32,000 nucleotides of DNA from Saccharolobus solfataricus (GTDB taxonomy: Archaea > Thermoproteota > Thermoprotei_A > Sulfolobales > Sulfolobaceae). Where the stretch lies: contig NZ_LT549890.1 in NCBI RefSeq assembly GCF_900079115.1, forward strand, positions 1,290,001-1,322,000, given 5' to 3'. Positions 4,775-20,577 of this stretch are shown piece by piece. Within the stretch, counting starts at the first letter, position 1. Each line of letters starts with the position of its first letter. The notes under the pieces are model-generated. The model had not been told where the DNA came from, ran no database searches, and worked only from the letters and a program-made list of their open reading frames with translations. The position numbers and the translations under genes are program-made.

Positions 4775-4799
4775 AATACAAAATAAGGGGTATCTAAAG

Positions 4800-4888
4800 T
4801 TTTTGTCCCAGAGTCGGATTTATCCAGTTATAAGTACAGTTCTAATGGAAAGCTTACATTATTCTTTCAATTCCTTTATGGATTTATC
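4800..4888 (-). CRISPR. vestigial CRISPR array: one good repeat, one 39-nt spacer, one degenerate terminal repeat
   Basis: The minus strand at 4888-4864 reads GATAAATCCATAAAGGAATTGAAAG, matching 22 of 25 positions of the array repeat at 31597. A second, degenerate repeat starts 64 nt downstream on the minus strand, at 4824 (GATAAATCC then diverged). 64 nt equals 25 + 39, which is the true array period. Confidence 0.6.
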
Positions 4889-5060
<172 letters not shown>

Positions 5061-5357
5061 TGAAGGTTCCTCCTAAATTCGTTGCGTCTCCTAAATAGCT
5101 ATTCAACATTTATACTATTTCATCTAAGTATTTTTTATTTTAACGTCAAGTTATCTTTTTAAAGGTATTTATAAGCAGGCTACTTTTACGTTTGATTTCA
5201 CGAGCCTGTATTAAAAATTATTTAAAGTCATATTATGTTTATACCAATATTATTTGAATTCTAAATTTAATGAAAATAAGTTTTCGTCTTATGGTTGTTA
5301 ATCAGAGGATTTGTAAAAGTATAAGAATGGGTATATATTGGTTTGTATAGGTTTACC

Positions 5358-5447
5358 GTGGGATTCAGATATCCATTGCGGATTCCCTTCATCTTAAAGA
5401 TTGTTATGAAATTAATTACATGAAGACAATTAACTAGCCGAGACGCG
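5358..5447 (+). repeat. left half of the 164-bp MITE family, truncated by the IS1-like element
   Basis: gggattcagatatccattgcggattc...aattacatgaagacaattaactagccgagacgcg aligns with 4123-4212 and 10332-10421. It stops exactly at the IS inverted repeat at 5448. Confidence 0.5.
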
Positions 5448-5504
5448 GGGAGTGTTCTCATGCAGTCATCTTATTCAAGAAGTATTAGTAAAATTATATC
5501 AAGT

Positions 5505-5894
5505 TTATCTAATATACTGTACTTCCTTCAAGTAAGCCTCGTTCAAGGGAGTTCCCTCTCTTGAAAACACGCGAGGGTACATTACATTTGACAAGGCTAA
5601 ACTGTACTCCGCCATTCTTATACTCCTATTAACAGCTTTAGTATCCCTAGCCAGCCTCGCCAACCTACACCAAGAATTATGACTCTCCACAAGATAAGTA
5701 TACTTCTTACCCGCTACACGATTATCGAGAACTTGATAAACACAGTAGTAGTCAGTATAGTTTACCTCACTCCTAGTTAACCAACCCAAGAGATAACGAA
5801 AAGTCCCATAACTCCTATCCCCAAACTCGTAAAAAGGCACCCCATCAGCCAGGACTGTCCAAATCCACAAATCCTCCCTCATCACCCCATACAC
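5505..5894 (-). pseudogene. IS1-family-like DDE transposase, C-terminal fragment
   Basis: 129 aa with the pattern W..V.....F.FGDRS...F..LL......YTDY...Y........GKKYT..VES.NS..R......T.. NRS, which resembles IS1 InsB C-terminal halves. The N-terminal half is missing, and the apparent start abuts the MITE at 5896. Confidence 0.55.
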
Positions 5895-5895
5895 T

Positions 5896-5973
5896 AGTAT
5901 TTTGGAAAAGTTCTTAGACTATGATCTAGTGGTATATCCTTTGCCTAAAGCTATAAACTTTCTGAAAGCACTA
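5896..5973 (+). mobile_element. 78-bp MITE (copy 2), TA-flanked
   Basis: Same sequence as 24994-25072, minus one T in a T-run. It lies inside the defective IS1-like element. Confidence 0.8.
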
Positions 5974-6105
5974 ACGTTCTAATCTATTGGCTGCATCTCG
6001 ATTAAAACGACTAATTGTGAAAATTTCTAGTTTGATTTAATTTTACTATATAATATTGAATAAGATAGCTGCATGAGAACACTCCCAAAATAGTCATTTT
6101 GGTGG

Positions 6106-6924
6106 TTACCATTTTATAAAGTAAGTCCCATAATCTGGTTGCCACAGTTCTAATGTAATTTTATTTCTATCTGCCGCTAACCTATGTTCGCTTTGTATCT
6201 CTACTCCCTCATGAGGCCCATCTAAGGTGACTACTAAAACTTTTTCCGCCTTCACGTTTTTTGGAACCCATGGTAGATTTATCGTAATCTTTGCATAATA
6301 GGTGGGTTGACCTATTGTGATCCCTTCCATACTGTAATTCATATTGTATCTTCTATAAAGCTCTTCCATAGTTGATGGAAAGTATTTTTCATCCCAAGTA
6401 TAGAACCCGTATTTTATCAATTCCCCTACCTCTAACGGGGGATCAAATGTTACGCGGAATTTAATGAGCTTAGGATCTACCTCTTTTTCCCACTTACCTT
6501 CACCTCTTTTATTCTCATCCAGCAGATTTTTCCTAGTTATCTTATTAAACCTTATTACTTTAGAGGCTTTTTCCGCGTTGAACCTATTGGATTGATGAAT
6601 TCTTTCCTTAACCCCGTTAACTAAAGGAGTTGCTTCGAAGTTTATTCTTAGAGCTCTATCTCCTTTAGGAGAGGCACTGCATATCTTATTTATGTTAAGG
6701 AATAGGAGATATTTATCTCCTTCAGAGTATACCTTACCCTTAGTTATCGTACCGTTCTTTAAACCTATTATATTTAGCTTACTCAGCCCATTTAGTATTC
6801 TTTCTATTTCTGTTCTATTCATTCTTATCATTATCTCGTTTATGTTAACGTCCTCATTATCAATGCCAACTTTCTTAAGTAGTGTTGCTATGAGTTTTTT
6901 TGAGGCTAAGGAAAGTTCTCCCAC
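6106..6924 (-). CDS. hypothetical protein, cluster-flanking paralog A (possible N-terminal winged-helix, C-terminal beta-rich domain)
   Basis: 272 aa, long ORF. The C-terminal region shares motifs with the protein at 18690-19481: GELIKYGFYTWD versus GEIIEFGLYIWN, and LELWQPDYGTYFIKW versus IKVHYPDYGIYKLSY. The N-terminus (LIATLLKKVGI...MNRTEIERILNGLSKLNIIGL) looks wHTH-like by eye only. Confidence 0.7.
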   Translation of the reverse strand: MGELSLASKKLIATLLKKVGIDNEDVNINEIMIRMNRTEIERILNGLSKLNIIGLKNGTITKGKVYSEGDKYLLFLNINKICSASPKGDRALRINFEATPLVNGVKERIHQSNRFNAEKASKVIRFNKITRKNLLDENKRGEGKWEKEVDPKLIKFRVTFDPPLEVGELIKYGFYTWDEKYFPSTMEELYRRYNMNYSMEGITIGQPTYYAKITINLPWVPKNVKAEKVLVVTLDGPHEGVEIQSEHRLAADRNKITLELWQPDYGTYFIKW

Positions 6925-7131
6925 ACCTTAATATTCTTAAAGCGTGTTATAAAAGTGTTGCTAAGTCCTCTATGTTGGAAACAAAATGCGGAAGTTGAAA
7001 CCAAATTAAAATTAGATTAACTATCAGTTAATATTAATATTAAGTTATAAACAATTAAAAGGTAAATATTAAGTAAATCTATAAAATTTAATAGGAAACA
7101 TTTATATTTTAAAGGATACTACTAAAGATAC

Positions 7132-7983
7132 ATGATGATGGAGAAAATAGTAATGGTTGCTATATTGATTTTATCAATCATTTCACTGCCATTGACTATA
7201 ATATATCCTCACGCTTCTTCATCTCTTCATTTAGGTCCTCAAAGAATATGCTTTAATATAACGTCAAACAATTACGTAAGTGCAGTATATAAGCCGATAA
7301 TTCAAGTTTTAAACTTAAATGCTAGGCCAAACTCAACCGTTAATATAACCTTAAGTTTAACGAATTCGTCAATGCCTATGATGCTTAAAGTACCTAAGTT
7401 CAATCTATTAGGATATACTTTAGGTGGCAAACTGGTGACAATCAACGTGAACCCTTTAGGATCTCTCTGTTACGGCATACCTGATCTATCGATTTCAACA
7501 CCCGTTTTCTCGGCAGGTGTTTATATGGTTTTCAGCGGGTATATAACTGGTGTTTTGTCTTTTTCTGGAAATATTTCCAAACCATTATTAATAAGACTTA
7601 CAGATGCGGGAAACTTAAGTATACCTATTAAAATTCCTCTCCATGCTTCTGGTAAAGGAATTATAACGCTATCTAATATTACCTATCATGTAGCTATAAG
7701 CCTAGTTGTTAAATATTCTTCACTGCTAAACTCTGGGAATTATACTATACTGCCTCTAAAGCCTATAGGGAACTTTAAGGGAGTCCCGTCCTATATTAAT
7801 GGAATTTATGTTATTGAAAGCAATTCTTACATGACCCTTCTTATCCTTTACTTGTATATTGTGATTGCAGTCGGGATGATTATAGCTATAATTGTCAAAT
7901 TTAGGAGGAAAATAATACATATTATTACATTCCTCAAGCACTTCGTGAAACTTACAAACCCATGCTTAGATAAACCAAAATAA
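7132..7983 (+). CDS. type-I-like membrane-anchored secreted glycoprotein (N-terminal signal/TM, C-terminal TM anchor)
   Basis: 283 aa. The N-terminal hydrophobic segment is IVMVAILILSIISLPLTII. There are at least 8 N-x-S/T sequons. The C-terminal TM is LLILYLYIVIAVGMIIAIIV, followed by a basic tail KFRRK. The TATA-like tttatattttaaa at 7101-7113 is centred about 27 nt before the ATG, which gives leaderless geometry. Confidence 0.75.
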   Translation: MMMEKIVMVAILILSIISLPLTIIYPHASSSLHLGPQRICFNITSNNYVSAVYKPIIQVLNLNARPNSTVNITLSLTNSSMPMMLKVPKFNLLGYTLGGKLVTINVNPLGSLCYGIPDLSISTPVFSAGVYMVFSGYITGVLSFSGNISKPLLIRLTDAGNLSIPIKIPLHASGKGIITLSNITYHVAISLVVKYSSLLNSGNYTILPLKPIGNFKGVPSYINGIYVIESNSYMTLLILYLYIVIAVGMIIAIIVKFRRKIIHIITFLKHFVKLTNPCLDKPK

Positions 7984-8221
7984 TAGAACCTAACCTCAAT
8001 TCAAGAGCGTAGGTATAATGAATGTAGCCTTTTTCATAATAGTTTCAAAAGGACTAGTTTTAACTTAAGATGTTAAAAATGAGTTAGTAATAGAAACAAC
8101 AAGAAATATTTTGTATTAGGGAATATCATTTTCCTTCGCGTCTATTAAGAAAAAGGCTATAATTGCTCGCACTCCTTCTTAAGCATACATATTTATATAT
8201 AACTTAAAACTACTTGTTTAT

Positions 8222-10063
8222 GTGAGCTATAGGACATTACTCTCAATAATTGTGATAATATTGGTAATGATTTCTTCCTTTTCCATATTATGTATAATAA
8301 TATCTAATGCAGAAATTACTATTAACAATAATATTACAGATTCAAATAATATTTATATGGCCCCTAATTTTTTTGGTGCCGATCCCGCTATGATCTTTCC
8401 CTATAATAGTACAATGTTGGGAATTATTCTAGCAGGCGGTGGTGGTCCAGAGCTTTCTGTAAGTCAAGTATATAATTTATCGTATCCTTATAATCAAGTC
8501 ATGTTTAATTATCCGGAAAATGGACCTTTAGAGTTAAATATGTCTTATGATAATTGGTCCATTCATGAAATATCATTCATAGCTCTACCAACTGTAGATG
8601 TTTATCCTACGAAAATATATAACTCTTCACTTTATCTTGGTAAGGGACTACTCTCCGCTACCTATAAAAATATCGCTATCATAATTATTTCTTATAAAGA
8701 TTTTTCCAAATATAATATAACTCTTAGTCAGTATCCTTCCCATATTCTTCAAGGAACGGATGGCATAGGTTTATTTATAATTCCGCTGCAAGCATTACCA
8801 TGGGTTTATGGGAAAAGTGTTAACTCATCCGTGATCCAACAGACCTATATTTTTCAAAACGAGACAAATTTAATAATTAACGGAAATGATTTTGGGTCTT
8901 TAACTCAATTGGGTCTTTATGATGAATTATCATCAACTGTTCAAACTTTAGAGTTTTTAAACACTACTTCACCTTATTCAAGTATATTAATTGATTCGAT
9001 AAATAACACTATAGAAGCTATGGCAAATCGATTTACCATTGATAACCAAACCATTGATAATTCAATTATTGACCTGGCCTATAGTTCGTCAACATTAACT
9101 CCCGGAGAACAAGAATTTTACGCTTACATAGTGAGTTTCGGTGGCAATATTACTACTAAAATAGAAAGTGAAATCTATTCAATTTTACCTAAATTAGTTA
9201 ATTTAATACAGTATCCCAGTATCTCAAATCAATCTCCAACCACAATAGTTTCGGTGTTTAATGTTCTGAATAGATCAGCTACTAAAGTACCTGGTGTTGT
9301 ATATGGATTACTTTACAATTCTACTGGATTAATTTCAAAATCTATAATGAATTCTAATGGTGAGTTAGTATTTAATGTTTCTCCAGGTACGTACGTACTT
9401 TACGTCTACCATTATCCAAACTTAGGACTTAATTATACAGAATATTGGGGTCAAATTAGAATAGATGTCAGATCTGGTATAAATAAATATAATTTTACTA
9501 GAGTTGAGCCGTGGATTTACAATATAATCGATACATCGATAGATTCTCAATTTAAGATATCTGTGAAAATTATTAATCCATTAAATCAAACAGTTAGCGG
9601 GCAGCTATATTTATGGATAAGTAACGGAATCGCATCCTCAGCTAGCGCTCCAACATTTGAAAGTCAGTTGCTCTTAAATCCTGGCGTAAATTCTATTAAT
9701 TATACTTATACAGCCTCAAGTAGTGGTTCTTACTATGTTTACGCAGTTTTGAAATCTTTTGTTTTAAATCCTGAAGGAGAGCCAATAACCACTGATCAAT
9801 ATAATTGGACTAGTATGGGAGGTATAAATATAAGTAATACGCCTACTCAAACTGTAACTACAACGTTTACGGTTACCCAAACCACTGTAAACCGGCAAAC
9901 TATCACCTCTACCGTTACCCAGACAAGCGAAGGTACCACCACAGTAGTAGTGGTTAATAAATCTTTAAGTGCTGGAGCAGAGCTATTAATTATCACTATA
10001 TCTATAATAATTATTGTAATTATGGGAATTATAATAATTCTGTTCCTAAGAAGATCTAAGTGA
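8222..10063 (+). CDS. large surface glycoprotein with Thr-rich stalk and C-terminal TM anchor
   Basis: 613 aa with a GTG start. It has an N-terminal TM (LLSIIVIILVMISSFSILCIII) and dozens of N-x-S/T sequons. Beta-sandwich-like stretches include GELVFNVSPGTYVLYVYHY and ISVKIINPLNQTVSGQLYLW. The Thr-rich linker is TPTQTVTTTFTVTQTTVNRQTITSTVTQTSEGTTT. The C-terminal TM is followed by RRSK. TATA atttatatataa lies at 8191-8202. Confidence 0.8.
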   Translation: MSYRTLLSIIVIILVMISSFSILCIIISNAEITINNNITDSNNIYMAPNFFGADPAMIFPYNSTMLGIILAGGGGPELSVSQVYNLSYPYNQVMFNYPENGPLELNMSYDNWSIHEISFIALPTVDVYPTKIYNSSLYLGKGLLSATYKNIAIIIISYKDFSKYNITLSQYPSHILQGTDGIGLFIIPLQALPWVYGKSVNSSVIQQTYIFQNETNLIINGNDFGSLTQLGLYDELSSTVQTLEFLNTTSPYSSILIDSINNTIEAMANRFTIDNQTIDNSIIDLAYSSSTLTPGEQEFYAYIVSFGGNITTKIESEIYSILPKLVNLIQYPSISNQSPTTIVSVFNVLNRSATKVPGVVYGLLYNSTGLISKSIMNSNGELVFNVSPGTYVLYVYHYPNLGLNYTEYWGQIRIDVRSGINKYNFTRVEPWIYNIIDTSIDSQFKISVKIINPLNQTVSGQLYLWISNGIASSASAPTFESQLLLNPGVNSINYTYTASSSGSYYVYAVLKSFVLNPEGEPITTDQYNWTSMGGINISNTPTQTVTTTFTVTQTTVNRQTITSTVTQTSEGTTTVVVVNKSLSAGAELLIITISIIIIVIMGIIIILFLRRSK

Positions 10064-10331
10064 TCTCTTAATTAATTTAATTATTGGATATGTACTAAAT
10101 TTTATAAATCATTAATAATATTCTGAGAGTATAGAATTTTATCCCATATAAGATGTGATTGGGAACTTTTCTTATTATAGTAAAAATTTCTAGTTCCATT
10201 ATTAACTTATGCTGTAATTTGTATGCATACATACAGATAATTAATGTCGTAGCAATTATCATATCTTCCCTTGATAATACCAGAAACCTTGTACGTCCTA
10301 GAAAGTTTTTAACCTTCAAGTCCACTTTATG

Positions 10332-10495
10332 GGGAGATTCAGATATCCGTTGCGAATTCACTTTATTTCAAAGATTACTACGAAATTAACTAAATGAAGA
10401 TGATTAACTAGCAGAGATACACGATTATCAATATTAACATTTTTACAACCGCATTATTTACAAATTACAATTCGCAAAGGAGACTTGAGTTGCTC
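10332..10495. mobile_element. 164-bp MITE (copy 2)
   Basis: Same length as 4123-4286 and clearly homologous across its length, with a diverged right terminus. It sits in the intergenic region upstream of the tubulin-like gene. Confidence 0.7.
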
Positions 10496-10614
10496 TAATG
10501 TTGTCATATACATCGAAATTAGTTCCAGAACAACGTTGCTTTGGAACCATTTGATATAAGATATATATAAATAGCAGATAGAGTAGAAAGAAACTAATAA
10601 GGGGATGAAAGGTA

Positions 10615-11712
10615 ATGTTAGAAGTAGTATATATAGTAGGAGCATTTGGATCACCGTTGCTAACTCCGCCTACGTTGGCAGTAGCTGGTTTCCTTATCGC
10701 TGTGCTTATGGGTCTAGAATATGGTGTATTATGGGTTCTAACTGGAGAATCTTTAAATAGAGAACTAATATTAGTTATATCAAATATAGTTTACTCGATA
10801 GCGTGGTCTATTACTGCACTACCTTTTACTCCAATATATTATACACTTCAACCTTATTTTTCTCAACCTCTCCTCATTTACCTTTATCTAGCACTTTTCA
10901 TAGGTTCTATATTGCTTGGTGTAATCCCAGCTATAATGTATATAAGAAAATATTTACAATTTAATAAAATACAAAAGGAATTTAAACAGTTAGAACTAGA
11001 TTATAAATCCATAAATCAAGAATATAGTGAAATTAATACGAGACTTAATAAAGCTAAGGAGGAAATCAATAATGTCATGGATAAGATTAATAAAGCTAAG
11101 GAATTACATGAAACCGCACTTAGGGATCCAGACTTAATAGTTACGGCACTTGATAAAAAACCTGAGATACCAGAGGTTATAAGACCTAATGTAAATTACG
11201 TAGTAGCAGGCTTAGGAGGTACTGGAACAGCGCTATTGGAGGCACTCATAGATTATTTAGTTTCAAAAAACGTCATTAAGGAAGACGGGACTAATCCTTT
11301 CTTATTCGTGGCTTTTGATACGAACCAAGCAAGTATTGCGAGACTGAGGAAAAAGTATGAATATACACCAGTTGGAAAACTATTGTATACCTTTAATAAC
11401 TTTGAGGCACTCACTACAGCTAATATAATAAGCCATAATCCTTGGCTTGCTGGGTTAAACGTTGATGTAATTCAAGGCTCTGGAATGAAGAGAGCTATAG
11501 GTTATGCATCTTATAATACGGTGAAGGAAGCCATGATGGAGGATATCCTCAGAAGGTTAAGTGATTTAATTGCCAAAACGAGAACTAATCGTATATTTTT
11601 AATAGTATTTACCGCTTTAGGAGGAGGTACTGGTTCTGGCTCATTCATTCATTTTACGAAGGACTTTATAAGTAGGCTAGGTAGGATAACTGGAGATTCA
11701 GAACCTTACGTG
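10615..11712 (+). pseudogene. 5' part (366 codons) of the IS-disrupted gene for a TM + coiled-coil + tubulin/FtsZ-superfamily GTPase
   Basis: It has 3-4 N-terminal TM helices, then a coiled coil (FNKIQKEFKQLELDYKSINQEYSEINTRLNKAKEEINNVMDKINKAKE). FtsZ-like motifs follow: T1 VVAGLGGTGT (11209-11229), FVAFDTNQASI (compare FtsZ NTDAQAL), T3-like IQGSGMKRAIG, and the tubulin signature T4 ALGGGTGSG (GGGTGSG at 11620-11640). The reading frame runs into the IS at 11713. Confidence 0.8.
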
Positions 11713-12938
11713 AGAGTGTCCGGAATGTAATTATCTGAACGAATAGATAAACAGAATGATAAATATTAATATTGCCAGAAGGGTAGGACCTGGATCACCG
11801 AGAAAAACTTTATAATGGAAAAATATCAAGACGAGAGGATTTACCTATCGCGCATAGCGTTGCCTGATCGCGAGGAGGCGCGTCTCAGAGCTGAACGGCT
11901 CTACGTCCTGGAGGAGTCCTCCGTTGGATCGCGAGGAACATCTTGATGTTGTAGATCACTCCCAGGACGTGAAGGAAGACGTCGTTCCTCCAGGTCGTGG
12001 TCCCGTAGGGCCTCCAGAACGCGTTCAGGTAGGTGCCGAAGAACTCCACGTGGGCCCTCAGGGTAGTGAAGGGCTTCTCCCGCGCTATGAGCTGTGTCGG
12101 GGAGGGAGAGAATCCCCTGTCCGCGATCTTAATCCCCTTGAGCGGTGACTTGAACCTCTTGTCCGAGAAGTTGGCCGGCTTCACCGTGATGGACCTCACG
12201 AAGAGGGAGACGGAGATCACGGCTATGGCCTTGAGCCCGTAGTGCGAGACCCCTCTCTTCTTGGTCCACCTTCCCTCGAACCTCCTCTTGGTTCTCCCCA
12301 GGGAGAGCAGCTTCCTGGCCCTCTCCAGGTTACCTTCCCTCCTCTCCAGCTCCGCCTTCTCCCGAAAGGTCTCCACGCTCCTCTTCCCAGGAGGTAAGTC
12401 CAGTAGGAAGGAGTCCACTAGCCACGCCATGAAGTCCACGAGATGCGCGCTCGCAGGGAGGTAACTGGGTAGGCACTTCTCCTCAAGCTTGAAGGAAATC
12501 TCCAACAACTTCTTCCTCACCCCGTACAACCTGCCCACGAAGTCGTGCAGCGTGCTCTTCCCCACCTTCCTCCCCACGAACCAGGCCACGACCACGTTCA
12601 CGTTAACCATTTTCACCGCGTCCCTATAGGAGCAAGAGTAGAGCACCATGACGATTAACAACTTCAAGTAAACCAGCGCGCCCTCGCCCAGAACCCTCTC
12701 CAAATCCATGGCGTCCAGCACGGGCTTGATCTCCGTTAACCATTTTTCCCTCCACGGCATATCCTCTATTGGGGGAAGAGGGTAGTACATCAGGTTTGGT
12801 ATGTGTCTTAATGTTCTTGCCATGGTACTACCCTCTACTCCCATAACTTAAGTGTTACTCCAATTTAATCCAAGATAATGCTAAAAACCAATTTATTCTT
12901 GCCAATAAAAATTCAATTTTTACATTCCGGACACTCTC
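11713..12938 (-). mobile_element. 1226-bp GC-rich IS (copy 1), IS4/IS5-type DDE transposase, about 18-bp terminal inverted repeats
   Basis: Terminal inverted repeats are (g)agagtgtccggaatgta and tacattccggacactctc. It is flanked by direct ACGTG (11708-11712 and 12939-12943). It is nearly identical to 15218-16444 in the opposite orientation. The size is in the ISC1225 class; the name is not verified. Confidence 0.85.
11885..12844 (-). CDS. IS4/IS5-family (DDE_Tnp_1-like) transposase
   Basis: 319 aa. The motif GLKAIAVISV...ITVKPANFSDKRF...IKIADRGFSPS matches the second-Asp region of IS4/IS5 transposases (..an..D......aDrGY). GC content is far above the surrounding DNA. Confidence 0.8.
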   Translation of the reverse strand: MGVEGSTMARTLRHIPNLMYYPLPPIEDMPWREKWLTEIKPVLDAMDLERVLGEGALVYLKLLIVMVLYSCSYRDAVKMVNVNVVVAWFVGRKVGKSTLHDFVGRLYGVRKKLLEISFKLEEKCLPSYLPASAHLVDFMAWLVDSFLLDLPPGKRSVETFREKAELERREGNLERARKLLSLGRTKRRFEGRWTKKRGVSHYGLKAIAVISVSLFVRSITVKPANFSDKRFKSPLKGIKIADRGFSPSPTQLIAREKPFTTLRAHVEFFGTYLNAFWRPYGTTTWRNDVFLHVLGVIYNIKMFLAIQRRTPPGRRAVQL

Positions 12939-12943
12939 ACGTG

Positions 12944-14959
12944 ATGGGATTCGGCGTGCTACCTAGAGGAAATGAAGGTAAATTATTTCACGTTAATGCA
13001 TTTTCCGCTATAAAGGAAATGCAGTTTATACTTAAAAATGGCGTTAGATCAAAAGATGAGAAGGCAAGTAGCGGAGCAGAAAATACTATAAATCTCATTA
13101 ATCCCTTCTTAGCATTTTTCATTATAAGTAGAGATAGACCCGTTAGAGATATAGATACTAATATAGCGGTAGGTCTAGCGAGATTTATATCGGATATAGG
13201 TACTTCTGGCGTAGTTGAAGCAAATCAGCAAAGTAAATATGCTGAGACTTTCGATCTCGGAGATATTAAAACTAAAGCTGCAATGTCTCCGGATTCCTTC
13301 TTCACCTTCAACAGATATGACATTTATTTCCCTGCTTCAAGAATATCGTGGTATAAAAACGTAGGAGTTATTGTAGTTAATGACATTAATTCTAGATATG
13401 CTAAATTAAGGGAAGAGTTAAATGAAATTTCGAGACTCTTATCTGGATACAAGGATAATATCTCGAAGTTTTTAGCGAATTTAGATAACCTTAACAATAC
13501 CGTTAAATCCATGACTGTAAAGGTGTACAGAAGATGGAGCAATAGAATAGGCGAAACACATACTCAACTTCTAAAGTGGAGGGCGGAAGTAGTAGAAGGA
13601 GGGAGTATATCACCTAAGAACCTTGAGACTCCATTAAATAGCATGAATAGCTCTACTGAAGAAAACGTTGAGAGTATAGTAATCTTAAAGAGGAGAATAG
13701 ATGAGTTCAATGAGATTGTGAAGGAAGAGGAGTCATTTTTAAAGAGTCCTCCTGCAAGCCAGATAGAGTACGTCTTTCCAGTTAGAGAACTTGAGAATTT
13801 TAACGTATCCCAGTTATCCACGGACAAAGCATCACTTTATAGACTAATCGAGGAGTATAGGAGAAAAGACGAATTCTTAAGAGCTTTAGCAGACTTAAAA
13901 GCTCCACTAGGTTCAGTAGGGCAGACAATGGCTAATATCGATTACCAGAAAATTAACGTTCCTATACCCATAACTACCGAGGCTAAAGAATTCATTTCTA
14001 AGTACAATTCTGGCTTAATAAAGCAGAATGCAGTAGTATCCCCCGATATAGCTAGCGTATTGATGGTTACTGCATCAATGCAGGATAATATAAACGTTAA
14101 TGATTTTCCTAATCCAGAAACCCTTAAACAAGCGTTAGAGAGTAAGACTCGCAATCCAGACGCTAAAATGGGCTATATCAATTCAAAAAGATTTAGTATA
14201 TCCACATATCACATAATAAATGGTGTTTACATATGGAGAATATCTAAAAATACCCCTCCTATTCTAAGGGATTTAACGTACCTCATAGAGGATTATGAGG
14301 CTGTTAAGAACGAAAACTTTGGAGAGTTAATTTACCATCATACATTGTTTTATAATGATCCTCAGACCTTTGAAGCATTAACGGGAGAACAAATAGCCAA
14401 TTTATCCCCTAATCAAGCAGCTTGGAGGATAATAGAATTTTGGGCGAACTATAATCCAGAAATAGAATATATTAATATTTGGGGAATTATAGAATTAGCC
14501 GGCGTATATAGTGATCTTAAAATTATTAATAATAATATTGATAATTTAATGGAATTACTTGACGGAGCTATAAAGAGTTTACAAAGGGGAGTAACTAACG
14601 TAGATGTGGTTAAGGTAAAGAAATATTTAGATGCAATAACCTCGGCAAAAGTTCCATCTTCAGAAAACGTTAAGGCAATCTACGAGGCTAATAAAATAGC
14701 GAATAAAGACGAGGTGAATAGAGGTCTCAAAGAGATAGCCGATTTAAGCCTACAAATACTCTCAAAACTGGAAGACATAAAGGTGAGATACGGTCAAAAA
14801 TGGATAGATGATCTGAATAAGTTAAAGAAGGAATCCACAGATTACGGTATAAATAGGATTATACAAACCCTTATAAATCACACTGATACGTTAATTACTA
14901 AATCAGAGAGTTTAAGTGAAGATCTCAATAAATTCGTGGAATCCATAACCTTAGAGTGA
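12944..14959 (+). pseudogene. 3' part (671 codons) of the IS-disrupted tubulin/FtsZ-like GTPase gene
   Basis: Joining 11712 to 12944 restores ...GDSEPYV|MGFGVLPRGNEGKLFHVNAF. GVLPRGNEGK resembles the FtsZ T5 segment (PFxFEGxxR). LINPF is T6-like. VGLARFISDIGTSG...TFDLGDIK resembles H7 plus the T7 synergy loop (N-x-D-x-x-D type, here FDLGD). A long helical C-terminal region of about 500 aa follows. Confidence 0.8.
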
Positions 14960-14965
14960 ACTAAA

Positions 14966-15217
14966 TTGTCCTCCTCATTCGATCCTGAGAGATCCCTACT
15001 AGATTTTTTCAAATCCAATAACAGCGAGCAAACGTTCTATATTTTGAAGGGACTTTATGAAATATATAAAAGTAAAGGTTATACTGAGTTCCTTAAGGAT
15101 ATTACTGGTCTAATTAATTTAGTAGCGAAATATGAGACTATGCTATCCATAAGTTCTAACACTAAAGGTAATTTAAAGAAAATAAAGGATATGTTGGAGA
15201 GGTTAAATATAGACGTG
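14966..15217 (+). pseudogene. 5' part (84 codons) of the second IS-disrupted gene of the cluster
   Basis: A TTG start lies 6 nt after the upstream stop, giving an operon-like arrangement. The frame runs into IS copy 2 at 15218. Confidence 0.65.
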
Positions 15218-16444
15218 AGAGTGTCCGGAATGTAAAAAATTGAATTTTTATTGGCAAGAATAAATTGGTTTCTAGTATTATCTTGGATTAAATTGGAGTA
15301 ACACTTAAGTTATGGGAGTAGAGGGTAGTACCATGGCAAGAACATTAAGACACATACCAAACCTGATGTACTACCCTCTTCCCCCAATAGAGGATATGCC
15401 GTGGAGGGAAAAATGGTTAACGGAGATCAAGCCCGTGCTGGACGCCATGGATTTGGAGAGGGTCCTTGGCGAGGGCGCGCTGGTTTACCTGAAGTTGTTA
15501 ATCGTCATGGTGCTCTATTCCTGCTCCTATAGGGACGCGGTGAAAATGGTCAACGTGAACGTGGTCGTGGCCTGGTTCGTGGGGAGGAAGGTGGGGAAGA
15601 GCACGCTGCACGACTTCGTGGGCAGGTTGTACGGGGTGAGGAAGAAGTTGTTGGAGATTTCCTTCAAGCTTGAGGAGAAGTGCCTACCCAGTTACCTCCC
15701 TGCGAGCGCGCATCTCGTGGACTTCATGGCGTGGCTAGTGGACTCCTTCCTACTGGACTTACCTCCTGGGAAGAGGAGCGTGGAGACCTTTCGGGAGAAG
15801 GCGGAGCTGGAGAGGAGGGAAGGTAACTTGGAGAGGGCCAGGAAGCTGCTCTCCCTGGGGAGAACCAAGAGGAGGTTCGAGGGAAGGTGGACCAAGAAGA
15901 GAGGGGTCTCGCACTACGGGCTCAAGGCAGTGGCCGTGATCTCCGTCTCCCTCTTCGTGAGGTCCATCACGTTGAAGCCAGCCAACTTCTCGGACAAGAG
16001 GTTCAAGTCACCGCTCAAGGGGATTAAGATCGCGGACAGGGGATTCTCTCCCTCCCCGACACAGCTCATAGCGCGGGAGAAGCCCTTCACTACCCTGAGG
16101 GCCCACGTGGAGTTCTTCGGCACCTACCTGAACGCGTTCTGGAGGCCCTACGGGACTACGACTTGGAGGAACGACGTCTTCCTTCACGTCCTGGGAGTGA
16201 TCTACAACATCAAGATATTCCTCGCGATCCAACGGAGGACTCCTCCAGAACGTAGAGCCGTTCAGCTCTGAGACGCACCTCCTCGCGATCAGACAACGCT
16301 ATGCGCGATAGGTAAATCCTCTCGTCTTGATATTTTTCCATTATAAAGTTTTTCTCGGTGATCCAGGTCCTATCCTTCTGGCAATATTAATATTTATCAT
16401 TCTGTTTATCTATTCGTTCAGATAATTACATTCCGGACACTCTC
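15218..16444 (+). mobile_element. 1227-bp GC-rich IS (copy 2), inverted relative to copy 1
   Basis: It has the same terminal inverted repeats as copy 1. Flanking repeats are ACGTG (15213-15217) and tCGTG (16445-16449). It differs from copy 1 by one A in a homopolymer next to the terminal repeat and by a handful of substitutions, which give 4 amino-acid differences in the transposase. Confidence 0.85.
15312..16271 (+). CDS. IS4/IS5-family (DDE_Tnp_1-like) transposase
   Basis: 319 aa, with 4 substitutions relative to 11885-12844. Confidence 0.8.
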   Translation: MGVEGSTMARTLRHIPNLMYYPLPPIEDMPWREKWLTEIKPVLDAMDLERVLGEGALVYLKLLIVMVLYSCSYRDAVKMVNVNVVVAWFVGRKVGKSTLHDFVGRLYGVRKKLLEISFKLEEKCLPSYLPASAHLVDFMAWLVDSFLLDLPPGKRSVETFREKAELERREGNLERARKLLSLGRTKRRFEGRWTKKRGVSHYGLKAVAVISVSLFVRSITLKPANFSDKRFKSPLKGIKIADRGFSPSPTQLIAREKPFTTLRAHVEFFGTYLNAFWRPYGTTTWRNDVFLHVLGVIYNIKIFLAIQRRTPPERRAVQL

Positions 16445-16449
16445 TCGTG

Positions 16450-18693
16450 AAAGAACTGGAGAGATTATCAAAAAGTATTGCCTCTGACCTCATTAATAAC
16501 ATAAACGATGTTTGTATTTCAATTCAAGGTTACTATAATGATAAGAAACTACCCATGGTTTTCAAATATAGCTGCCATGAAATGTTACCAGATCCTTATA
16601 ATGCTGACCATAACTACCCCGCTAGGTTAAAGTATTTCTTGACAACAGTTCTTAGAATGAGGAATTCTTACGAATCAACAGTTAGATTCTCTACAGATTT
16701 AATAGATTACTATTCTAAAAAATTGGGATATGATATATCAAATATAAAGGACTTTTCCGAGAAATTAAGATTCGTAACTAACTCCCTTCTGGATCCTTCT
16801 TTCATATCAACCCTTCAAGGAATTACTAAAGTTCTGATGGATTCAACCGAGTATTTATGTGTAATATCTTATTACTTAACACCTCAAAAAATTAGAGGCA
16901 AGAAACCCTCAACAATTATAGAATACGAGCCATTAATAGATAATATTATTAAATACTCATCATACTTCCTAAGATTTATTTTCGAAAAAACTGACAGATT
17001 TCTAAATTTTATTCCATCAGCTGGCCTAAACTTAACTGAATTAAGGAATATAGCCAATCAAATGCTCGAAATACTCTCTAAAATTAACCTAAATGTTTTA
17101 GAATCTTATCTTACAAATCAAGGAGAGTTGAAACTATCTCAAATTTATACTGGAGACCTACTATTCTTTACCTTCTTTAATTTAGCTGATGCATTAAATA
17201 TTTATGATGATTACATATATAAAATCAGAAACGCAGTACTTTCCGTACCTTTAGAAAATAGGATCGCAATAACTAGAAGTATTCTCGGATTAAAAGATGT
17301 TGAGGATATTAATATGAGCTGTAGAGATGTACATAATTTTATTCTAAATATGAATGAAATCTCAAATGAAATTTATTCTGGTGGAAATATTGCAGAATTA
17401 ATAGATAGTCTGCGAAAGTACGTTTTCATAAGGGATTCTATAAATTATGCTTTTAAAGATGTAGCACTATTAATGCAGAACGTACTATACTCTAAAGAAA
17501 TCACGTATTTAAGTATGTCCCTTCACGTAGAAAACTACATACATAATACCTCAGCCATAGAATTACTTGATAGAATTAGAATAGATTATAATGATTATAA
17601 CCGATTAATTAATAATTTACATGAGTTTAGGGACTGGATTAACGTACTCAAAAAGCTCGATTTAGATCAAAAGTTGTCTGAATCTCTAGTCAAGGTAGTG
17701 AGCGGGGATCCTCCAACTAATAGTAAAATGAGTTTGGATGAAGTAATAGGAAAGATAATTAAGAGAGAACAAGCTAACGTTGAGGAAGTTAAAGGAACTG
17801 GAATATACGAATTTAGAACAGACAATAGGGTAATAAGAGCCATGCCCGTTATATACGATATGTGGAAGGAAATAGGAGATGACGGGATAGAATATTCCCA
17901 TTTAGTAAATTGGTTAAGTAAGAGATTAGATATTGATGATGATAGAAAAGTTAATGAGATAGCAATAAAATACTTAAATGCGTCATATTATGCAGGGTTA
18001 ATAAAACTTGAAGAAAAACCGACAACTAAGCCTCCAGATACTGAACAAACTCGTAAAAGAGAAATCACGATTAACGCAATAGGTATCCCTACTGGAGCAA
18101 GATGGAAATTCATACTCGCACGGGAAAATAAATATCTTAATTTCGATACAAACGAAAGTTCGATAAGGATTAAAGCGCAAGAAAAAGATAATCTAACTTT
18201 CTATGATGTTACGATAGGCAATGTTATATATGTACCCTATCCTAGGACGTATACCATTAGATCTAGTGATTTATCAAAAGGCGTGTTAGACGTAAAATAT
18301 AATGTATCTTCCCCTCAATCAAGTCAAAGGACTGGAAAAACTAATGTGCAAACTAATGTAAAGATTTCCAAACCCAAGGGAACTGCAACCGCAGGTGTTA
18401 TATTATCAATAGTATATATTATCGAACTAATAGTAATTGCAAGTGGATTCCAATACTCTAACATTCTATTTGAAGCATTAACAGTAATGGACATATTCTT
18501 TCAGTTAGCAATAATGGGATTACTAGTATCCGCTGTAACTAACCCCTATAACTCCCATAAAAAAGGTTCATATATTATCATAATATCGATAATAATGTTC
18601 TTCTTTTCAATCCCCATAATAGAATATGTGATATTCTTCATTATATTTGATATTGCAGTTGGAATTTCATTAGCAAGATTTAAACGTAGGTGA
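16450..18693 (+). pseudogene. 3' part (747 codons) of the second IS-disrupted gene: large helical protein with a beta-rich module and 3-4 C-terminal TM helices
   Basis: Joining 15217 to 16450 is in frame (...ERLNIDV|KELERLSKSIA...), giving 831 aa. C-terminal TM segments are AGVILSIVYIIELIVIASGF, LTVMDIFFQLAIMGLLVSAV and IIIISIIMFFFSIPIIEYVIFFIIFDIAVGISLA. I recognised no catalytic motif. Confidence 0.7.
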
Positions 18694-19481
18694 TAGGTAT
18701 GGAAAAGAAAAACTCAATAAATATATCATTATTAGAAAATTTAGCAAATTTTTTCTCCATAGGGGAAATAGAAAAGGGAGAACTAAGAGCAAATTCAGAA
18801 ATAATTAATTATCTTTTAGAACAAGGTCTAATAAGACAAATAGAGAGAAATTTTATAGTAGATGAACTGCTCAAATTTATTATATTAAAATATAGTAATA
18901 TAGTAAAATTAAAAATGTCTAAAGACTATTTAGTGAAGACTCAATCAATATATATACTCTTAATGATAGTAGACGAGAATTATCATAAAATACCTTTTTA
19001 CGACTATATTGCGTATAGCGGACTGGTTAAGATAAAAAAGAAGAGAATTGCAAGGAGTGTAATAAGAAATGGTAAAAAGATCATCAATAATAATCAAGGC
19101 GAAATACATTTAATGAAATATCAAAAAAATAAAATAAAGGCTGAGATTAACCTAGATCAAACGAAGTCTGGAGAGATAATTGAATTCGGCTTATATATAT
19201 GGAATAGGCCATCTAAGCTAAGTTTAATGGGAGATAAGACCTTTAGCCAAAACTATTTCTGGATATACGCTCCTACCTTAGAATACTCCACCAAAATACT
19301 TCTCGAAAATAATCTAAATGTAGAATCGATAAACCTAGAAAGGTTCTTATATCTAGATGACAACCATCAAATTAAGGCACCAATTAAAAATCAATATATG
19401 CTCAGAAAAGAAAAAAATTATATTGAGATAAAAGTGCATTATCCTGATTATGGTATATATAAACTATCGTACAATTTATAA
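18690..19481 (+). CDS. hypothetical protein, cluster-flanking paralog B
   Basis: 263 aa. Either a GTG start overlaps the upstream stop, or the start is the ATG at 18699. It shares C-terminal motifs with 6106-6924 (see that feature). Confidence 0.7.
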   Translation: MIGMEKKNSINISLLENLANFFSIGEIEKGELRANSEIINYLLEQGLIRQIERNFIVDELLKFIILKYSNIVKLKMSKDYLVKTQSIYILLMIVDENYHKIPFYDYIAYSGLVKIKKKRIARSVIRNGKKIINNNQGEIHLMKYQKNKIKAEINLDQTKSGEIIEFGLYIWNRPSKLSLMGDKTFSQNYFWIYAPTLEYSTKILLENNLNVESINLERFLYLDDNHQIKAPIKNQYMLRKEKNYIEIKVHYPDYGIYKLSYNL

Positions 19482-19821: not shown

Positions 19822-19845
19822 ATACGAAAATCGTATCGATTGTTT

Positions 19846-20232
19846 GGGGTGTTCTAATGCATCCATCTTATTCGATAATAAATAATAAAATTATATCAGA
19901 TTAGAAATTTTCACAATTAGTCGTTCCGAATCCAGATGCAGCCAAAGGAATTAGAACGTGAAAACAGCCTCTGAAAAAGGTTTATGTGCAAGGATTACGA
20001 AATCTTTTTGTAGTAGTACTTGAATGGATCTCGCGAACTCTTGCACATAAGTTTTTCTAAAATAATGTCTTTGTTCAAATTTCTATATCTTAAACGTTAA
20101 ACGAGCGTTTTTCATATTACTCCAATATTTTTACAAATGTTTTTTGAATTTCATGACTGTTTGAGAACACTCCCAACTTGATATAATTTTACAAATAATT
20201 TTAGAATTTCATGATTGCATGAGAACACTCCC
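19846..20232. mobile_element. 387-bp non-autonomous derivative of the IS1-like element, with a duplicated right end
   Basis: The left inverted repeat ggggtgttctaatgcat and the next 110 nt align with the reverse complement of 5975-6086. The right end aatttcatgaYtgNNtgagaacactccc is present twice (ending at 20174 and 20232). An internal 11-bp stem pairs ttatgtgcaag (19982-19992) with cttgcacataa (20040-20050). Confidence 0.6.
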
Positions 20233-20577
20233 AATTCAAAGAAATCCAATTTTATTTATATCATCAGATACATATAATTAAATTTTAGACTATATTAAAA
20301 ACAGAGTAAATTTTCTTATATTTGAAGAAACAATATGATAATCCTAGCTGAATTTATATTTGTAAGACGATTTTGGATCTACTGAGAAGGGGCGAGGCTT
20401 GTCTTTTCTGTGTCAAAAGAGTTTGAAACTGAAGTAGAAAGTCGTATCTTAAGTACTCGAGTTAAGTTTAAAGTCATGCTATACACTTTTTAATACTGTG
20501 ATTTATACTTTACAATTCCAACTGAAAATCTCGAATGACGTAATTGTCCCCCTTTCACATCTAAACTCAGTAGGACC

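What the first reader, a model, noticed from the sequence alone, without database searches (positions are those of the whole stretch)
6106..19481. Six-gene envelope cluster built around the tubulin-like GTPase: candidate undescribed membrane-associated system
The gene order is:
- Paralog A (minus strand).
- Then, all on the plus strand, a 283-aa membrane-anchored glycoprotein.
- A 613-aa Thr-stalk surface glycoprotein.
- The TM/coiled-coil/tubulin-like GTPase.
- An 831-aa helical protein with a beta-rich module and 3-4 C-terminal TM helices. Its TTG start is 6 nt after the GTPase stop.
- Paralog B, whose start overlaps the previous stop.
Four of the six products are predicted membrane or surface proteins, and none has an obvious enzymatic motif other than the GTPase. 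The tight spacing of the last three genes implies co-translation or an operon. The cluster sits between a vestigial CRISPR leader/array (4.8-5.06 kb) and cas6/csx1/CRISPR (20.5-32 kb). This is a variable, mobile-element-saturated, defence-island-like neighbourhood. It is therefore a candidate either for a cytoskeleton-driven envelope-remodelling machine or for a membrane-acting defence/exclusion module. Both functional readings are inference.
Basis: inference. Interest (0 to 1): 0.85.

Follow-up and report, generated by a model that had tools for sequence, protein, structure and literature searches.

The report
Membrane-anchored tubulin-like GTPase operon, IS-disrupted
The real unit is a rare three-gene operon of Sulfolobus-type archaea, not six genes: a membrane-anchored tubulin/FtsZ-like GTPase already noted in 2010, a dedicated helical partner found only beside it, and a small third protein. 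In this genome two transposon insertions have inactivated it.

Summary
The six ORFs are at the stated coordinates. The window is Saccharolobus solfataricus, genes SSO1373-SSO1380. The GTPase (SSO1376 + SSO1378) and its 831-aa partner (SSO1379) are each split by a copy of ISC1234. Removing each insertion restores open frames of 1037 aa and 831 aa.

Makarova and Koonin (2010) already reported the GTPase as an IS-disrupted, transmembrane-fused FtsZl1 (Pfam Tubulin_2) protein. They listed this neighbourhood without interpreting it.

New here:
- Intact relatives form a subfamily of 13 sequences from Sulfolobaceae, Acidilobus, Thermoplasmata and uncultured archaea. All are about 1016-1064 aa, with N-terminal TM helices and invariant GTP-binding loops.
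- The partner family directly follows the GTPase in all 8 loci of the closer clade. It has only 5 hits among 1.84 billion representative proteins.
- The 260-aa gene (SSO1380) follows the partner in every Sulfolobaceae locus that extends that far.
- dN/dS of 0.10-0.25 shows purifying selection, so the disruptions are recent.

The 613-aa glycoprotein is syntenic only within Saccharolobus. The 283-aa protein and paralog A are S. solfataricus-only. No defence, viral or plasmid signature was found.

Best reading: an accessory, membrane-tethered, GTP-dependent assembly of the FtsZl1 kind. It is a new variant of a known kind, its function is untested, and this copy is dead.

The parts
10615..11711 (+). 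5' part of the tubulin/FtsZ-like (FtsZl1, Tubulin_2) GTPase gene (SSO1376). It encodes 3-4 TM helices, a long stalk helix, and the GTPase domain through the GGGTGSG loop. Native coding sequence runs to 11707, followed by the ACGT target site.
   Evidence: Pfam PF13809 scores 36.9 bits (cut-off 27). T1 is at G199-G204 and T4 at G336-G342.
11712..12938 (-). ISC1234 copy 1. The transposase ORF is 11885-12844 (-). It has 23-nt terminal inverted repeats and is flanked by ACGT on both sides.
   Evidence: The name ISC1234 comes from the SSO1377 annotation in PMC2875224 Additional file 5.
12939..14959 (+). 3' part of the GTPase gene (SSO1378). It encodes the T5 region, an invariant DxxD and the PAS..SW motifs, coiled coils, and the helical C-terminal region. 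It is in frame with the 5' part once the IS is removed, giving 1037 aa in total.
14966..15216 (+). 5' part of the partner gene (SSO1379). The TTG start is 6 nt after the GTPase stop, and an SD-like GAGTGA overlaps that stop.
   Evidence: The intact 831-aa form, P0007, is present in strain P2.
15217..16444 (+). ISC1234 copy 2. The transposase ORF is 15312-16271 (+). It is absent from this site in strains P2 and 98/2, so it is a strain-specific recent insertion.
16445..18693 (+). 3' part of the partner gene. It encodes a helical cytoplasmic core, a Saccharolobus-specific beta-rich insert, a Ser/Thr/Pro linker, and 3 C-terminal TM helices.
18699..19481 (+). Third operon gene, B (SSO1380), about 260 aa. 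The probable ATG is at 18699, preceded by AGGTGA. The alternative GTG at 18690 overlaps the partner stop.
8222..10063 (+). 613-aa surface glycoprotein (SSO1375) with a signal/anchor segment, 24 sequons, a Thr-rich stalk and a C-terminal TM helix. It is syntenic upstream of the GTPase only within Saccharolobus. Whether it belongs to the system is unproven.
7132..7983 (+). 283-aa protein (SSO1374) anchored by TM segments at both ends, with 8 sequons. It was found only in S. solfataricus and is probably not part of the system.
6106..6924 (-). Paralog A (SSO1373), 272 aa. Its C-terminal ~130 aa are related to B. It is not present in the other Saccharolobus loci. An A-like gene lies 4 kb downstream of B in Sulfolobus sp. 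B5.

Best explanation
The functional unit is a three-gene operon. This copy is a recent pseudo-operon.

Gene 1 is a ~1040-aa integral-membrane protein of the tubulin/FtsZ superfamily, FtsZl1 / Pfam Tubulin_2 branch. It has 3-4 N-terminal TM helices, and the last of them continues into a ~60-residue cytoplasmic stalk helix. This carries a GTPase domain with intact T1, T4 and T5 loops, followed by coiled coils and a helical C-terminal region.

Gene 2, translationally coupled 6 nt downstream, is a 620-900-aa helical orphan protein found only next to gene 1. Its own TM segment is variable: C-terminal in Sulfolobaceae, N-terminal in one lineage, and absent in others.

Gene 3, in Sulfolobaceae only, is a 260-aa soluble protein.

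Shown: the gene structure, the conservation and coupling of the genes, the tubulin fold, the conserved GTP-binding motifs, purifying selection, the patchy distribution, and the IS disruptions.

Inferred: the GTPase binds and hydrolyses GTP on the cytoplasmic face. It self-associates in a nucleotide-dependent way, as other tubulin-superfamily proteins do. Together with the partner it forms a membrane-tethered assembly that shapes or organises the membrane. This matches the 'FtsZl1-centred membrane remodelling' prediction of Makarova and Koonin, and it would be functionally analogous to membrane-anchored dynamin/mitofusin-type GTPases.

The system is accessory and dispensable in culture. In this strain both gene 1 and gene 2 are broken by ISC1234.

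My confidence is about 0.85 that GTPase plus partner form a dedicated module, and about 0.35 that membrane remodelling by polymerisation is the mechanism. The single figure given for this explanation (0.55) is a compromise between the two.
For: Reconstruction:
- Removing each IS and one ACGT copy gives uninterrupted proteins of 1037 aa and 831 aa.
- The intact 831-aa partner exists in strain P2.
- An intact 1037-aa GTPase, 92% identical, exists in a Saccharolobus MAG.

GTPase identity:
- PF13809 scores above its cut-off.
- The best PDB sequence hit is CetZ 4b46, E 7e-6, aligned through the T4-T5 loops.
- The AlphaFold model of the 82%-identical ortholog has pLDDT 71 overall and 80-90 in the GTPase domain.
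- Foldseek matches that model to tubulin, FtsZ, CetZ and TubZ at probability 1.00.
- In 13 family members, T1 (G199/G201/G202/G204), T4 (GGGTGSG), N384-A385 and D470-x-x-D473 are invariant.

Module:
- The partner family directly follows the GTPase in all 8 loci of the closer clade.
- An exhaustive HMMER search of 1.84e9 representative proteins finds only 5 partner-family proteins.
- 12 of the 13 GTPase loci have a tightly linked, co-directional downstream gene.
- Gene B follows the partner in all four other Sulfolobaceae loci that reach that far.
- SD-like GAGTGA and AGGTGA overlap the upstream stop codons.

Selection: dN/dS is 0.10-0.15 for the GTPase, 0.21-0.25 for the partner and 0.19-0.24 for B.

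Topology:
- The K/R-rich segment after TM4 can be read directly in the reconstructed sequence.
- Sequon density is low in the GTPase, the partner and B.

Accessory status:
- The GTPase is independently disrupted in S. caldissimus by a different 832-bp element with terminal inverted repeats and a 10-bp duplication.
- The taxonomic distribution is patchy.
Against: - There is no experimental datum on any FtsZl1 protein in the literature searched.
- Polymerisation is not established for this family. No FtsZ_C or Tubulin_C domain is present. HMM alignments to solved tubulins stop at H5.
- The conserved DxxD region has low model confidence (residues 452-490) and finds no PDB match on its own.
- In the more distant GTPase loci the downstream gene is not detectably a partner homolog. 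hhalign gives probabilities of 20-48% over the N-terminal ~200 aa only. One Thermoplasmata locus has no co-directional downstream gene.
- The folds of the partner and of B are unknown. The AlphaFold model of B reached pLDDT 38.
- None of the usual FtsZl1 operon partners (vWA, kinase, P-loop GTPase, OmpA) is present.
Confidence: 0.55

Rival explanations
1. It is a membrane-acting antiviral defence or exclusion module. The GTPase and partner would sense or block virus entry or egress at the envelope, as dynamin-like defence GTPases are proposed to do.
For: - The distribution is patchy and the module is repeatedly inactivated.
- In Saccharolobus it lies in variable regions next to CRISPR-Cas, VapBC, HEPN-MNT and IS elements.
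- An AbiEii-like AAA_21 gene lies near the Acidilobus locus.
Against: - No PADLOC model matches beyond weak coiled-coil noise.
- No effector-type domain such as a nuclease or protease is found.
- Loci with long flanks in Thermoplasmata and in a metagenome contig sit among ordinary genes: polyprenyl synthetase, MFS, radical SAM, WD40 and canonical ftsZ.
- S. solfataricus genomes are saturated with IS and TA genes, so proximity to them carries little weight. This last point rests on my own knowledge.
Confidence: 0.15
2. The two surface glycoproteins and paralog A work together with the GTPase, the partner and B, linking a cytoplasmic GTPase to extracellular glycoproteins.
For: - The 613-aa protein is upstream of the GTPase in three Saccharolobus species.
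- In Sulfolobus sp. B5 the core operon is followed by two secreted or anchored Ig/PKD-type proteins and an A-like gene. The same kinds of components therefore recur in a different order.
- Anchored surface proteins also neighbour the GTPase in L005 and L010.
Against: - The three Saccharolobus genomes are close relatives, so shared synteny is weak evidence.
- The surface proteins of different loci are not homologous.
- The 283-aa protein and A are missing from two of the three Saccharolobus loci.
- The 613-aa gene is 551 nt upstream of the GTPase, with a repeat element and a separate TATA-like box in between.
Confidence: 0.15
3. It is a decaying remnant with no current function in any of these lineages: cargo of an old mobile element that is being lost.
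For: - Three independent IS hits occur across two species.
- IS-derived inverted repeats flank the six-gene block in S. solfataricus.
- The distribution is rare.
Against: - dN/dS of 0.10-0.25 across Saccharolobus lineages shows long-term purifying selection.
- Intact full-length copies exist in at least 10 lineages.
- Invariant GTP-binding motifs persist at 26-30% overall identity.
- There are no matches in virus or plasmid collections.
- The flanking repeats are specific to S. solfataricus.
Confidence: 0.1

Closest known systems
FtsZl1 family (Makarova & Koonin 2010, PMC2875224) = Pfam Tubulin_2 (PF13809); 'FtsZl1-centred predicted membrane-remodelling systems'
   Same: - The GTPase domain scores above the PF13809 cut-off.
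- hhalign to classical archaeal FtsZl1 proteins gives probability 98.5% over aa 195-430.
- The layout after the GTPase domain is coiled coil followed by helical regions.
- The operon partners are membrane-associated and uncharacterised.
- This very gene (SSO1376) was assigned to the family in that paper.
   Different: - An N-terminal TM domain of 3-4 helices plus a stalk helix is added.
- The C-terminal ~600 aa are not detectably homologous to classical FtsZl1.
- The operon partners are a different, orphan family (SSO1379) plus SSO1380, not vWA, kinase, P-loop GTPase, OmpA or A1/A2.
- The DxxD motif is invariant within this subfamily.
CetZ / FtsZ / tubulin (canonical tubulin-superfamily cytoskeletal proteins)
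   Same: - The nucleotide-binding domain has the same fold (Foldseek probability 1.00).
- The T1, T4 and T5 motifs are present.
- The best PDB sequence hit is CetZ.
   Different: - There is no FtsZ_C or Tubulin_C domain.
- The protein is membrane-integral and about three times longer.
- The T7 loop is not verifiable.
- Polymerisation is untested.
Membrane-anchored dynamin-superfamily GTPases (BDLP, mitofusin, atlastin, LeoA/DynA)
   Same: The overall logic is the same: a GTPase head on helical stalks tethered to the membrane, often encoded with a paralogous or partner gene, and dispensable. This is a functional analogy only, and the comparison rests on my own knowledge.
   Different: The GTPase fold is unrelated: tubulin-type here, not a P-loop dynamin-type fold. 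There is no sequence or fold match.

Membership tests
FtsZl1 / Pfam Tubulin_2 (PF13809) | Score above the Pfam gathering cut-off for PF13809 | tested here: met
   The window fragment 10615-11730 scores 36.9 bits against a cut-off of 27. PF13809 is precomputed on all five full-length homologs.
FtsZl1 / Pfam Tubulin_2 (PF13809) | GGGTG(S/T)G signature loop (T4) and glycine-rich T1 loop | tested here: met
   GGGTGSG at 336-342 and G199/G201/G202/G204 are invariant in 13 members.
FtsZl1 / Pfam Tubulin_2 (PF13809) | Tubulin/FtsZ fold of the nucleotide-binding domain | tested here: met
   The AlphaFold model of the 82%-identical ortholog P0001 has pLDDT 80-90 over residues 194-450. Foldseek matches it to tubulin, FtsZ, CetZ and TubZ with E 3e-5 to 2e-4 and probability 1.00.
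FtsZl1 / Pfam Tubulin_2 (PF13809) | Architecture: FtsZ-like domain, then coiled coil, then a helical C-terminal domain, with no FtsZ_C or Tubulin_C domain | tested here: met
   There is an extra N-terminal TM domain, which the 2010 paper noted as unique among archaeal members.
FtsZl1 / Pfam Tubulin_2 (PF13809) | C-terminal region homologous to that of classical FtsZl1 proteins | tested here: not met
   hhalign of the 13-member profile against Methanoregula/Methanomicrobiales FtsZl1 proteins (723-727 aa) aligns only aa 195-430.
FtsZl1-centred operon (Makarova & Koonin 2010) | Neighbouring vWA-domain protein, Ser/Thr kinase, diverged P-loop GTPase or OmpA-like protein | tested here: not met
   No such Pfam domain appears in any product of the window cluster or in the partner-family members.
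FtsZl1-centred operon (Makarova & Koonin 2010) | Archaeal accessory families A1 (MA2713) and A2 (MA2710) | not testable with these tools
   Their sequences could not be fetched. Indirectly, the partner profile hit nothing outside its own family in 1.84e9 proteins at E <= 1e-3.
Canonical FtsZ / CetZ / tubulin | C-terminal (FtsZ_C or Tubulin_C) domain | tested here: not met
   No such Pfam hit. HMM alignments to PDB chains end at H5.
Canonical FtsZ / CetZ / tubulin | T7 catalytic loop (NxDxxD/E) that completes the active site of the next subunit | tested here: inconclusive
   D470-x-x-D473-[IV]-[RK]-T is invariant in 13 members and resembles the E. coli FtsZ sequence NVDFADVRT (that sequence is from my own knowledge). 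The region has pLDDT below 50, and a profile of aa 415-512 finds no PDB chain at E <= 10.
Known anti-phage defence systems (PADLOC-DB 2.0) | Match of any cluster protein to a defence-system model | tested here: not met
   There are only weak coiled-coil-type hits (PDC-M64C E 5e-4, LmuB E 1e-3, JetC E 0.09) to the helical parts of the GTPase, and one weak partner hit (Cas11a, E 0.022). The other four proteins match nothing.
Known anti-phage defence systems (PADLOC-DB 2.0) | Consistent co-localisation with defence genes across lineages | tested here: not met
   In Saccharolobus the neighbours are CRISPR-Cas and TA genes. Loci L010 and L022 have housekeeping-type neighbours.
ISC1234 (the inserted element) | About 1.23 kb, terminal inverted repeats, and a transposase annotated as ISC1234 | tested here: met
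   Two copies are 98% identical over 1214 nt and carry 23-nt terminal inverted repeats. The transposase ORF is 319 aa. The P2 ortholog SSO1377 is annotated 'transposase ISC1234'. No ISfinder comparison was run.

The most novel reading that the evidence does not exclude
The TM-anchored FtsZl1 GTPase and its exclusive partner form a previously uncharacterised class of membrane-integral tubulin-superfamily machine. The polymer would be built directly on the membrane through the protein's own TM anchor. It would use an FtsZ-like T7 (DxxD) activation mechanism but a wholly different C-terminal and partner scaffold, and it would drive a membrane process (vesicle or tubule formation, envelope repair, or virus exclusion) in archaea, including Crenarchaeota that lack FtsZ.
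Probability: 0.25. Interest if true: 0.8.

Novelty: new variant of a known kind. Interest (0 to 1): 0.5.

Why it matters
Sulfolobales divide with ESCRT-III/Cdv and were long thought to lack tubulin-family proteins. The FtsZl1 branch is the most divergent part of the tubulin superfamily, and no experimental characterisation of it turned up in the literature searched.

Three results turn a 2010 single-genome curiosity into a defined and testable system:
- The TM-fused form is a real, selected subfamily with intact members.
- It always travels with one dedicated partner gene.
- Intact operons exist in Sulfolobus sp. B5 and in a Saccharolobus MAG.

The natural IS knock-outs in S. solfataricus and S. 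caldissimus also explain why model strains show no phenotype that could be attributed to it.

Tried and rejected
- **Profile search of PDB sequences.** The partner and the A/B family found nothing at E <= 1.
- **Pfam, NCBIfam, PADLOC and PHROGs.** All six proteins and their family alignments gave no meaningful hit except Tubulin_2/Tubulin.
- **Downstream genes in distant loci.** I tried to show that the genes downstream of the GTPase in L005, L006, L009, L011 and L022 are diverged partners. The only signal was weak co-linear N-terminal similarity (hhalign P 2e-4 to 1e-3, probability 20-48%), which I left as inconclusive.
- **Internal relationships.** Partner against the GTPase C-terminus, and A/B against the partner or the GTPase, showed nothing.
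- **Homology among surface proteins of different loci.** None was found.
- **T7-loop test.** A profile of aa 415-512 against the PDB gave no hits.
- **Viral or plasmid origin.** IMG/VR scans with the GTPase, partner and A/B profiles, and tblastn against phage and plasmid collections, were all negative.
- **Sigma-70 promoter/terminator scan.** It is not applicable to archaea and I disregarded it.
- **Composite-transposon idea.** I considered it because IS-type inverted repeats flank the block. I set it aside because those repeats occur only in S. solfataricus.

Full report
**Observation**

ORF listing shows the six reading frames at the stated positions. Two of them are interrupted.
- The GTPase is split into 10615-11730 (371 aa) and 12878-14959 (693 aa).
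- The partner is split into 14966-15235 (89 aa) and 16447-18693 (748 aa).
- Both upstream fragments end in the same foreign peptide, VRVSGM.
- The interruptions are two copies of one ~1.23-kb element, 98% identical over 1214 nt and in opposite orientation. Each encodes a 319-aa transposase and has 23-nt terminal inverted repeats.
- Deleting each element with one copy of the flanking ACGT (TCGT at one end of copy 2) restores uninterrupted frames of 1037 aa and 831 aa.

**Identity of the locus**

The region is Saccharolobus solfataricus.
- Strain P2 (AE006641, 1206914-1229409) has the same genes at 99.6-100% identity. It differs in having an intact 831-aa partner.
- The second IS copy is therefore specific to the window's strain.
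- In P2 nomenclature the genes are SSO1373 (A), SSO1374 (283 aa), SSO1375 (613 aa), SSO1376 + SSO1378 (GTPase halves), SSO1377 (ISC1234 transposase), SSO1379 (partner) and SSO1380 (B).

**What was already known**

Makarova and Koonin (Biol Direct 2010, PMC2875224) reported SSO1376 as follows.
- It is a member of their new FtsZl1 family.
- It was the first tubulin/FtsZ-superfamily protein seen in Crenarchaeota.
- It is disrupted by a transposon.
- It was the only archaeal member fused to transmembrane helices.
- They predicted that it represents a crenarchaeal subfamily that would grow as more genomes were sequenced.

Their Additional file 5 lists SSO1373-SSO1380 but gives no family label to any neighbour. 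In the library searched, no other paper's full text mentions SSO1376, SSO1378, SSO1379 or SSO1380. SSO1373 appears once, as 1.66-fold induced by H2O2. A 2023 survey treats Tubulin_2 proteins only as an outgroup.

**The GTPase**

- Pfam Tubulin_2 (PF13809) scores 36.9 bits against a cut-off of 27.
- A profile of the GTPase region finds CetZ (4b46, E 7e-6) as the best solved structure. The alignment runs through the T4 loop and the GxGxxP..EG..Y..NA T5 region and stops at H5.
- An AlphaFold model of the 82%-identical intact ortholog P0001, built from a 7-row alignment, reached mean pLDDT 71 and pTM 0.60. It shows these parts:
  - TM helices within residues 2-81.
  - One continuous helix at 84-170, which is the last TM helix extended into a stalk.
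  - An alpha/beta nucleotide-binding domain at 194-450 (pLDDT 80-90).
  - A low-confidence stretch at 452-490.
  - Long helices at 496-632.
  - A poorly modelled alpha/beta region at 640-800.
  - A helical C-terminus at 810-1033.
- Foldseek against the PDB returns tubulins, S. aureus FtsZ (target TM-score 0.48-0.50), CetZ, TubZ and Odin tubulin at probability 1.00.

**The subfamily**

The word-indexed protein search, the genome-contig scan and the metagenome scan together gave 13 distinct full-length relatives.
- Their sources are Saccharolobus, Sulfolobus sp. B5, Acidilobus, two Thermoplasmata MAGs and several unassigned metagenome contigs.
- All are 1016-1064 aa with an N-terminal hydrophobic domain, and they are 24-92% identical to one another.
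- 61 positions are invariant across the 13. They include T1, the whole GGGTGSG loop, N384-A385, D470-x-x-D473 and PAS..SW at 496-502.
- Homology to classical, TM-less archaeal FtsZl1 proteins (723-727 aa) is confined to aa 195-430 (hhalign probability 98.5%).
- The DxxD-[IV]-[RK]-T motif resembles the FtsZ T7 loop as I remember it. It could not be verified, because the model confidence is low there and a profile of that region finds no PDB chain.

**The partner**

- SSO1379-family proteins (620-900 aa) lie immediately downstream of the GTPase, 6-32 nt away, in all 8 loci of the closer clade. These are S. solfataricus, S. caldissimus, the Saccharolobus MAG, L003, Sulfolobus sp. B5, L004, L008 and L020. 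HMM E-values range from 1e-93 to 0.
- The conserved part is the first ~620 aa, with invariant C106, C126, P133-Y134 and others.
- The TM segment is C-terminal in Sulfolobaceae, N-terminal in L004, and absent in L008 and L020.
- An exhaustive HMMER search of 1.84 billion representative proteins found only five members, two of them fragments.
- No Pfam, PDB, PADLOC or PHROG relative exists.
- In the remaining GTPase loci (24-35% identity) a co-directional gene follows within 45 nt in five of six cases. It is not demonstrably homologous, with hhalign probabilities of only 20-48% over the N-terminal ~200 aa.

**B and A**

- SSO1380-type genes follow the partner in S. caldissimus, the Saccharolobus MAG, Sulfolobus sp. 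B5 (39% identity) and all the S. solfataricus assemblies.
- The likely start is ATG 18699, preceded by AGGTGA that overlaps the partner's TGA. Similarly, GAGTGA overlaps the GTPase stop ahead of the partner's TTG. From my own knowledge, GGUGA is the Sulfolobus Shine-Dalgarno motif for internal operon genes. This fits translational coupling.
- A and B share only their C-terminal ~130 aa (28% identity, E 1e-7).
- A is absent from the other Saccharolobus loci. An A-like gene (28% identity, E 8e-17) lies 4 kb downstream of B in Sulfolobus sp. B5, after two secreted or anchored PKD/Ig-type proteins.

**The surface proteins**

- The 613-aa protein has a signal/anchor segment, 24 N-X-S/T sequons, a Thr-rich stalk and a C-terminal TM helix. 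The 283-aa protein has 8 sequons and TM segments at both ends.
- The 613-aa protein is upstream of the GTPase in the three Saccharolobus species (86% identity). It has no homolog in the other loci.
- The 283-aa protein is unique to S. solfataricus.
- The 551-nt spacer before the GTPase holds a 119-nt dispersed repeat, and a TATA-like ATATATATAAATA lies about 40 nt upstream of the ATG.
- I therefore treat these genes as neighbours, not demonstrated components.

**Selection and decay**

- Nei-Gojobori dN/dS among the Saccharolobus orthologs is 0.10-0.15 for the GTPase, 0.21-0.25 for the partner, 0.19-0.24 for B and 0.24-0.30 for the 613-aa protein. The genes were under constraint until recently.
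- The GTPase is nevertheless broken in every S. solfataricus assembly seen.
- It is broken independently in S. caldissimus by an 832-bp element with terminal inverted repeats and a 10-bp duplication at nt 458.
- The partner is broken in this strain only.
- The system is therefore dispensable in these cultured strains.

**Context and the defence question**

- In the other Saccharolobus genomes the operon sits beside VapBC and HEPN-MNT pairs.
- No protein matches a PADLOC model meaningfully.
- Nothing was found in IMG/VR, phage or plasmid collections.
- The two loci with 10-kb flanks outside Sulfolobales have ordinary neighbours. One of these is a canonical ftsZ 2 kb from the TM-GTPase in a Thermoplasmata MAG.
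- The defence reading is not excluded, but no test supported it.

**Conclusion**

The finding is real but needs re-scoping. The conserved entity is GTPase plus partner, with B added in Sulfolobaceae.
- It is a new, TM-anchored variant of the FtsZl1-centred systems predicted in 2010, with its own orphan partners.
- The window's copy is a double IS knock-out.
- Mechanism, as inference: a cytoplasm-facing, GTP-dependent, membrane-tethered assembly acting on the membrane.
- I rate the module as well supported (about 0.85) and the mechanism as plausible but unproven (about 0.35).
- Interest is moderate, for four reasons: the headline protein is published, this copy is dead, the partner linkage and the existence of intact orthologs are new, and the FtsZl1 branch remains experimentally untouched.

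Noticed in passing
window 6006-6088 and 19843-19925; also 5448-5505, 20125-20234: 83-nt inverted repeats, 86% complementary, bracket the whole six-gene block. They are the terminal repeats of an IS1-family remnant (5448-6088, with a 129-aa DDE_Tnp_IS1 fragment at 5505-5894) and of a ~390-bp MITE-like element (19843-20234). They are present in S. solfataricus P2 and 98/2 but not at the orthologous loci of the Saccharolobus MAG or S. caldissimus.
   Followed up: partly
window 4117-4235, 5352-5470, 10326-10444: A 119-nt dispersed repeat family (63-84% identity). One copy sits in the spacer between the 613-aa gene and the GTPase gene. It is probably a MITE.
   Followed up: no
window 4686-4764 and 5895-5973: A perfect 79-nt inverted repeat with 1130 nt between the arms. 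It encloses the solitary CRISPR-like repeat (4864-4888) and the IS1 remnant. One arm lies inside the 129-aa ORF 4392-4781 (-), which has a weak DUF6293_C winged-helix hit.
   Followed up: no
window 26352-29447 (+): A 1031-aa protein with an N-terminal nSTAND3 NTPase hit (PF20720, 31 bits) lies between cas6 and csx1. It is a possible STAND-type defence or signalling NTPase.
   Followed up: no
window 337-1512 (+): A TnpB-type protein with OrfB_IS605 plus Cas12f1-like TNB domains lies upstream of the 2-oxoacid dehydrogenase E1 genes (1961-3993).
   Followed up: no
L014 (S. caldissimus AP025226) 6497-7328: An independent 832-bp insertion with terminal inverted repeats (GAGTGTGGACAACAAT...) and a 10-bp target duplication splits the GTPase ortholog at nt 458. 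It carries a 234-aa ORF with no Pfam hit on record.
   Followed up: partly
L010 (Thermoplasmata MAG CAWISZ010000004) 15229-16362: A canonical FtsZ gene (Tubulin plus FtsZ_C domains) lies about 2 kb downstream of the TM-anchored FtsZl1 gene. A surface protein of more than 3194 aa lies directly upstream.
   Followed up: no
L003 (GCA_964635305.1 contig CAZWOP010000055): The GTPase and partner orthologs here show unusually high dN/dS against the window (0.65 and 0.67). The partner also carries a 70-aa low-complexity C-terminal extension (900 aa in total). This suggests relaxed constraint or assembly errors.
   Followed up: no
L008 (NZ_JBAMME010000155, labelled Thermogutta sp. MAG): A contig binned to a planctomycete carries the archaeal-type GTPase-partner pair, with a GTPase 50-52% identical to those on the metagenome contigs L004 and L020. 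It also carries a DUF1286 gene. The contig is probably misbinned, but a bacterial host cannot be excluded.
   Followed up: no
L001 (Sulfolobus sp. B5) 10778-11746: The A-like protein here has an N-terminal CxxC-containing extension and a weak hit to phrog_33343 (E 5e-4). S. solfataricus paralog A lacks this extension.
   Followed up: no
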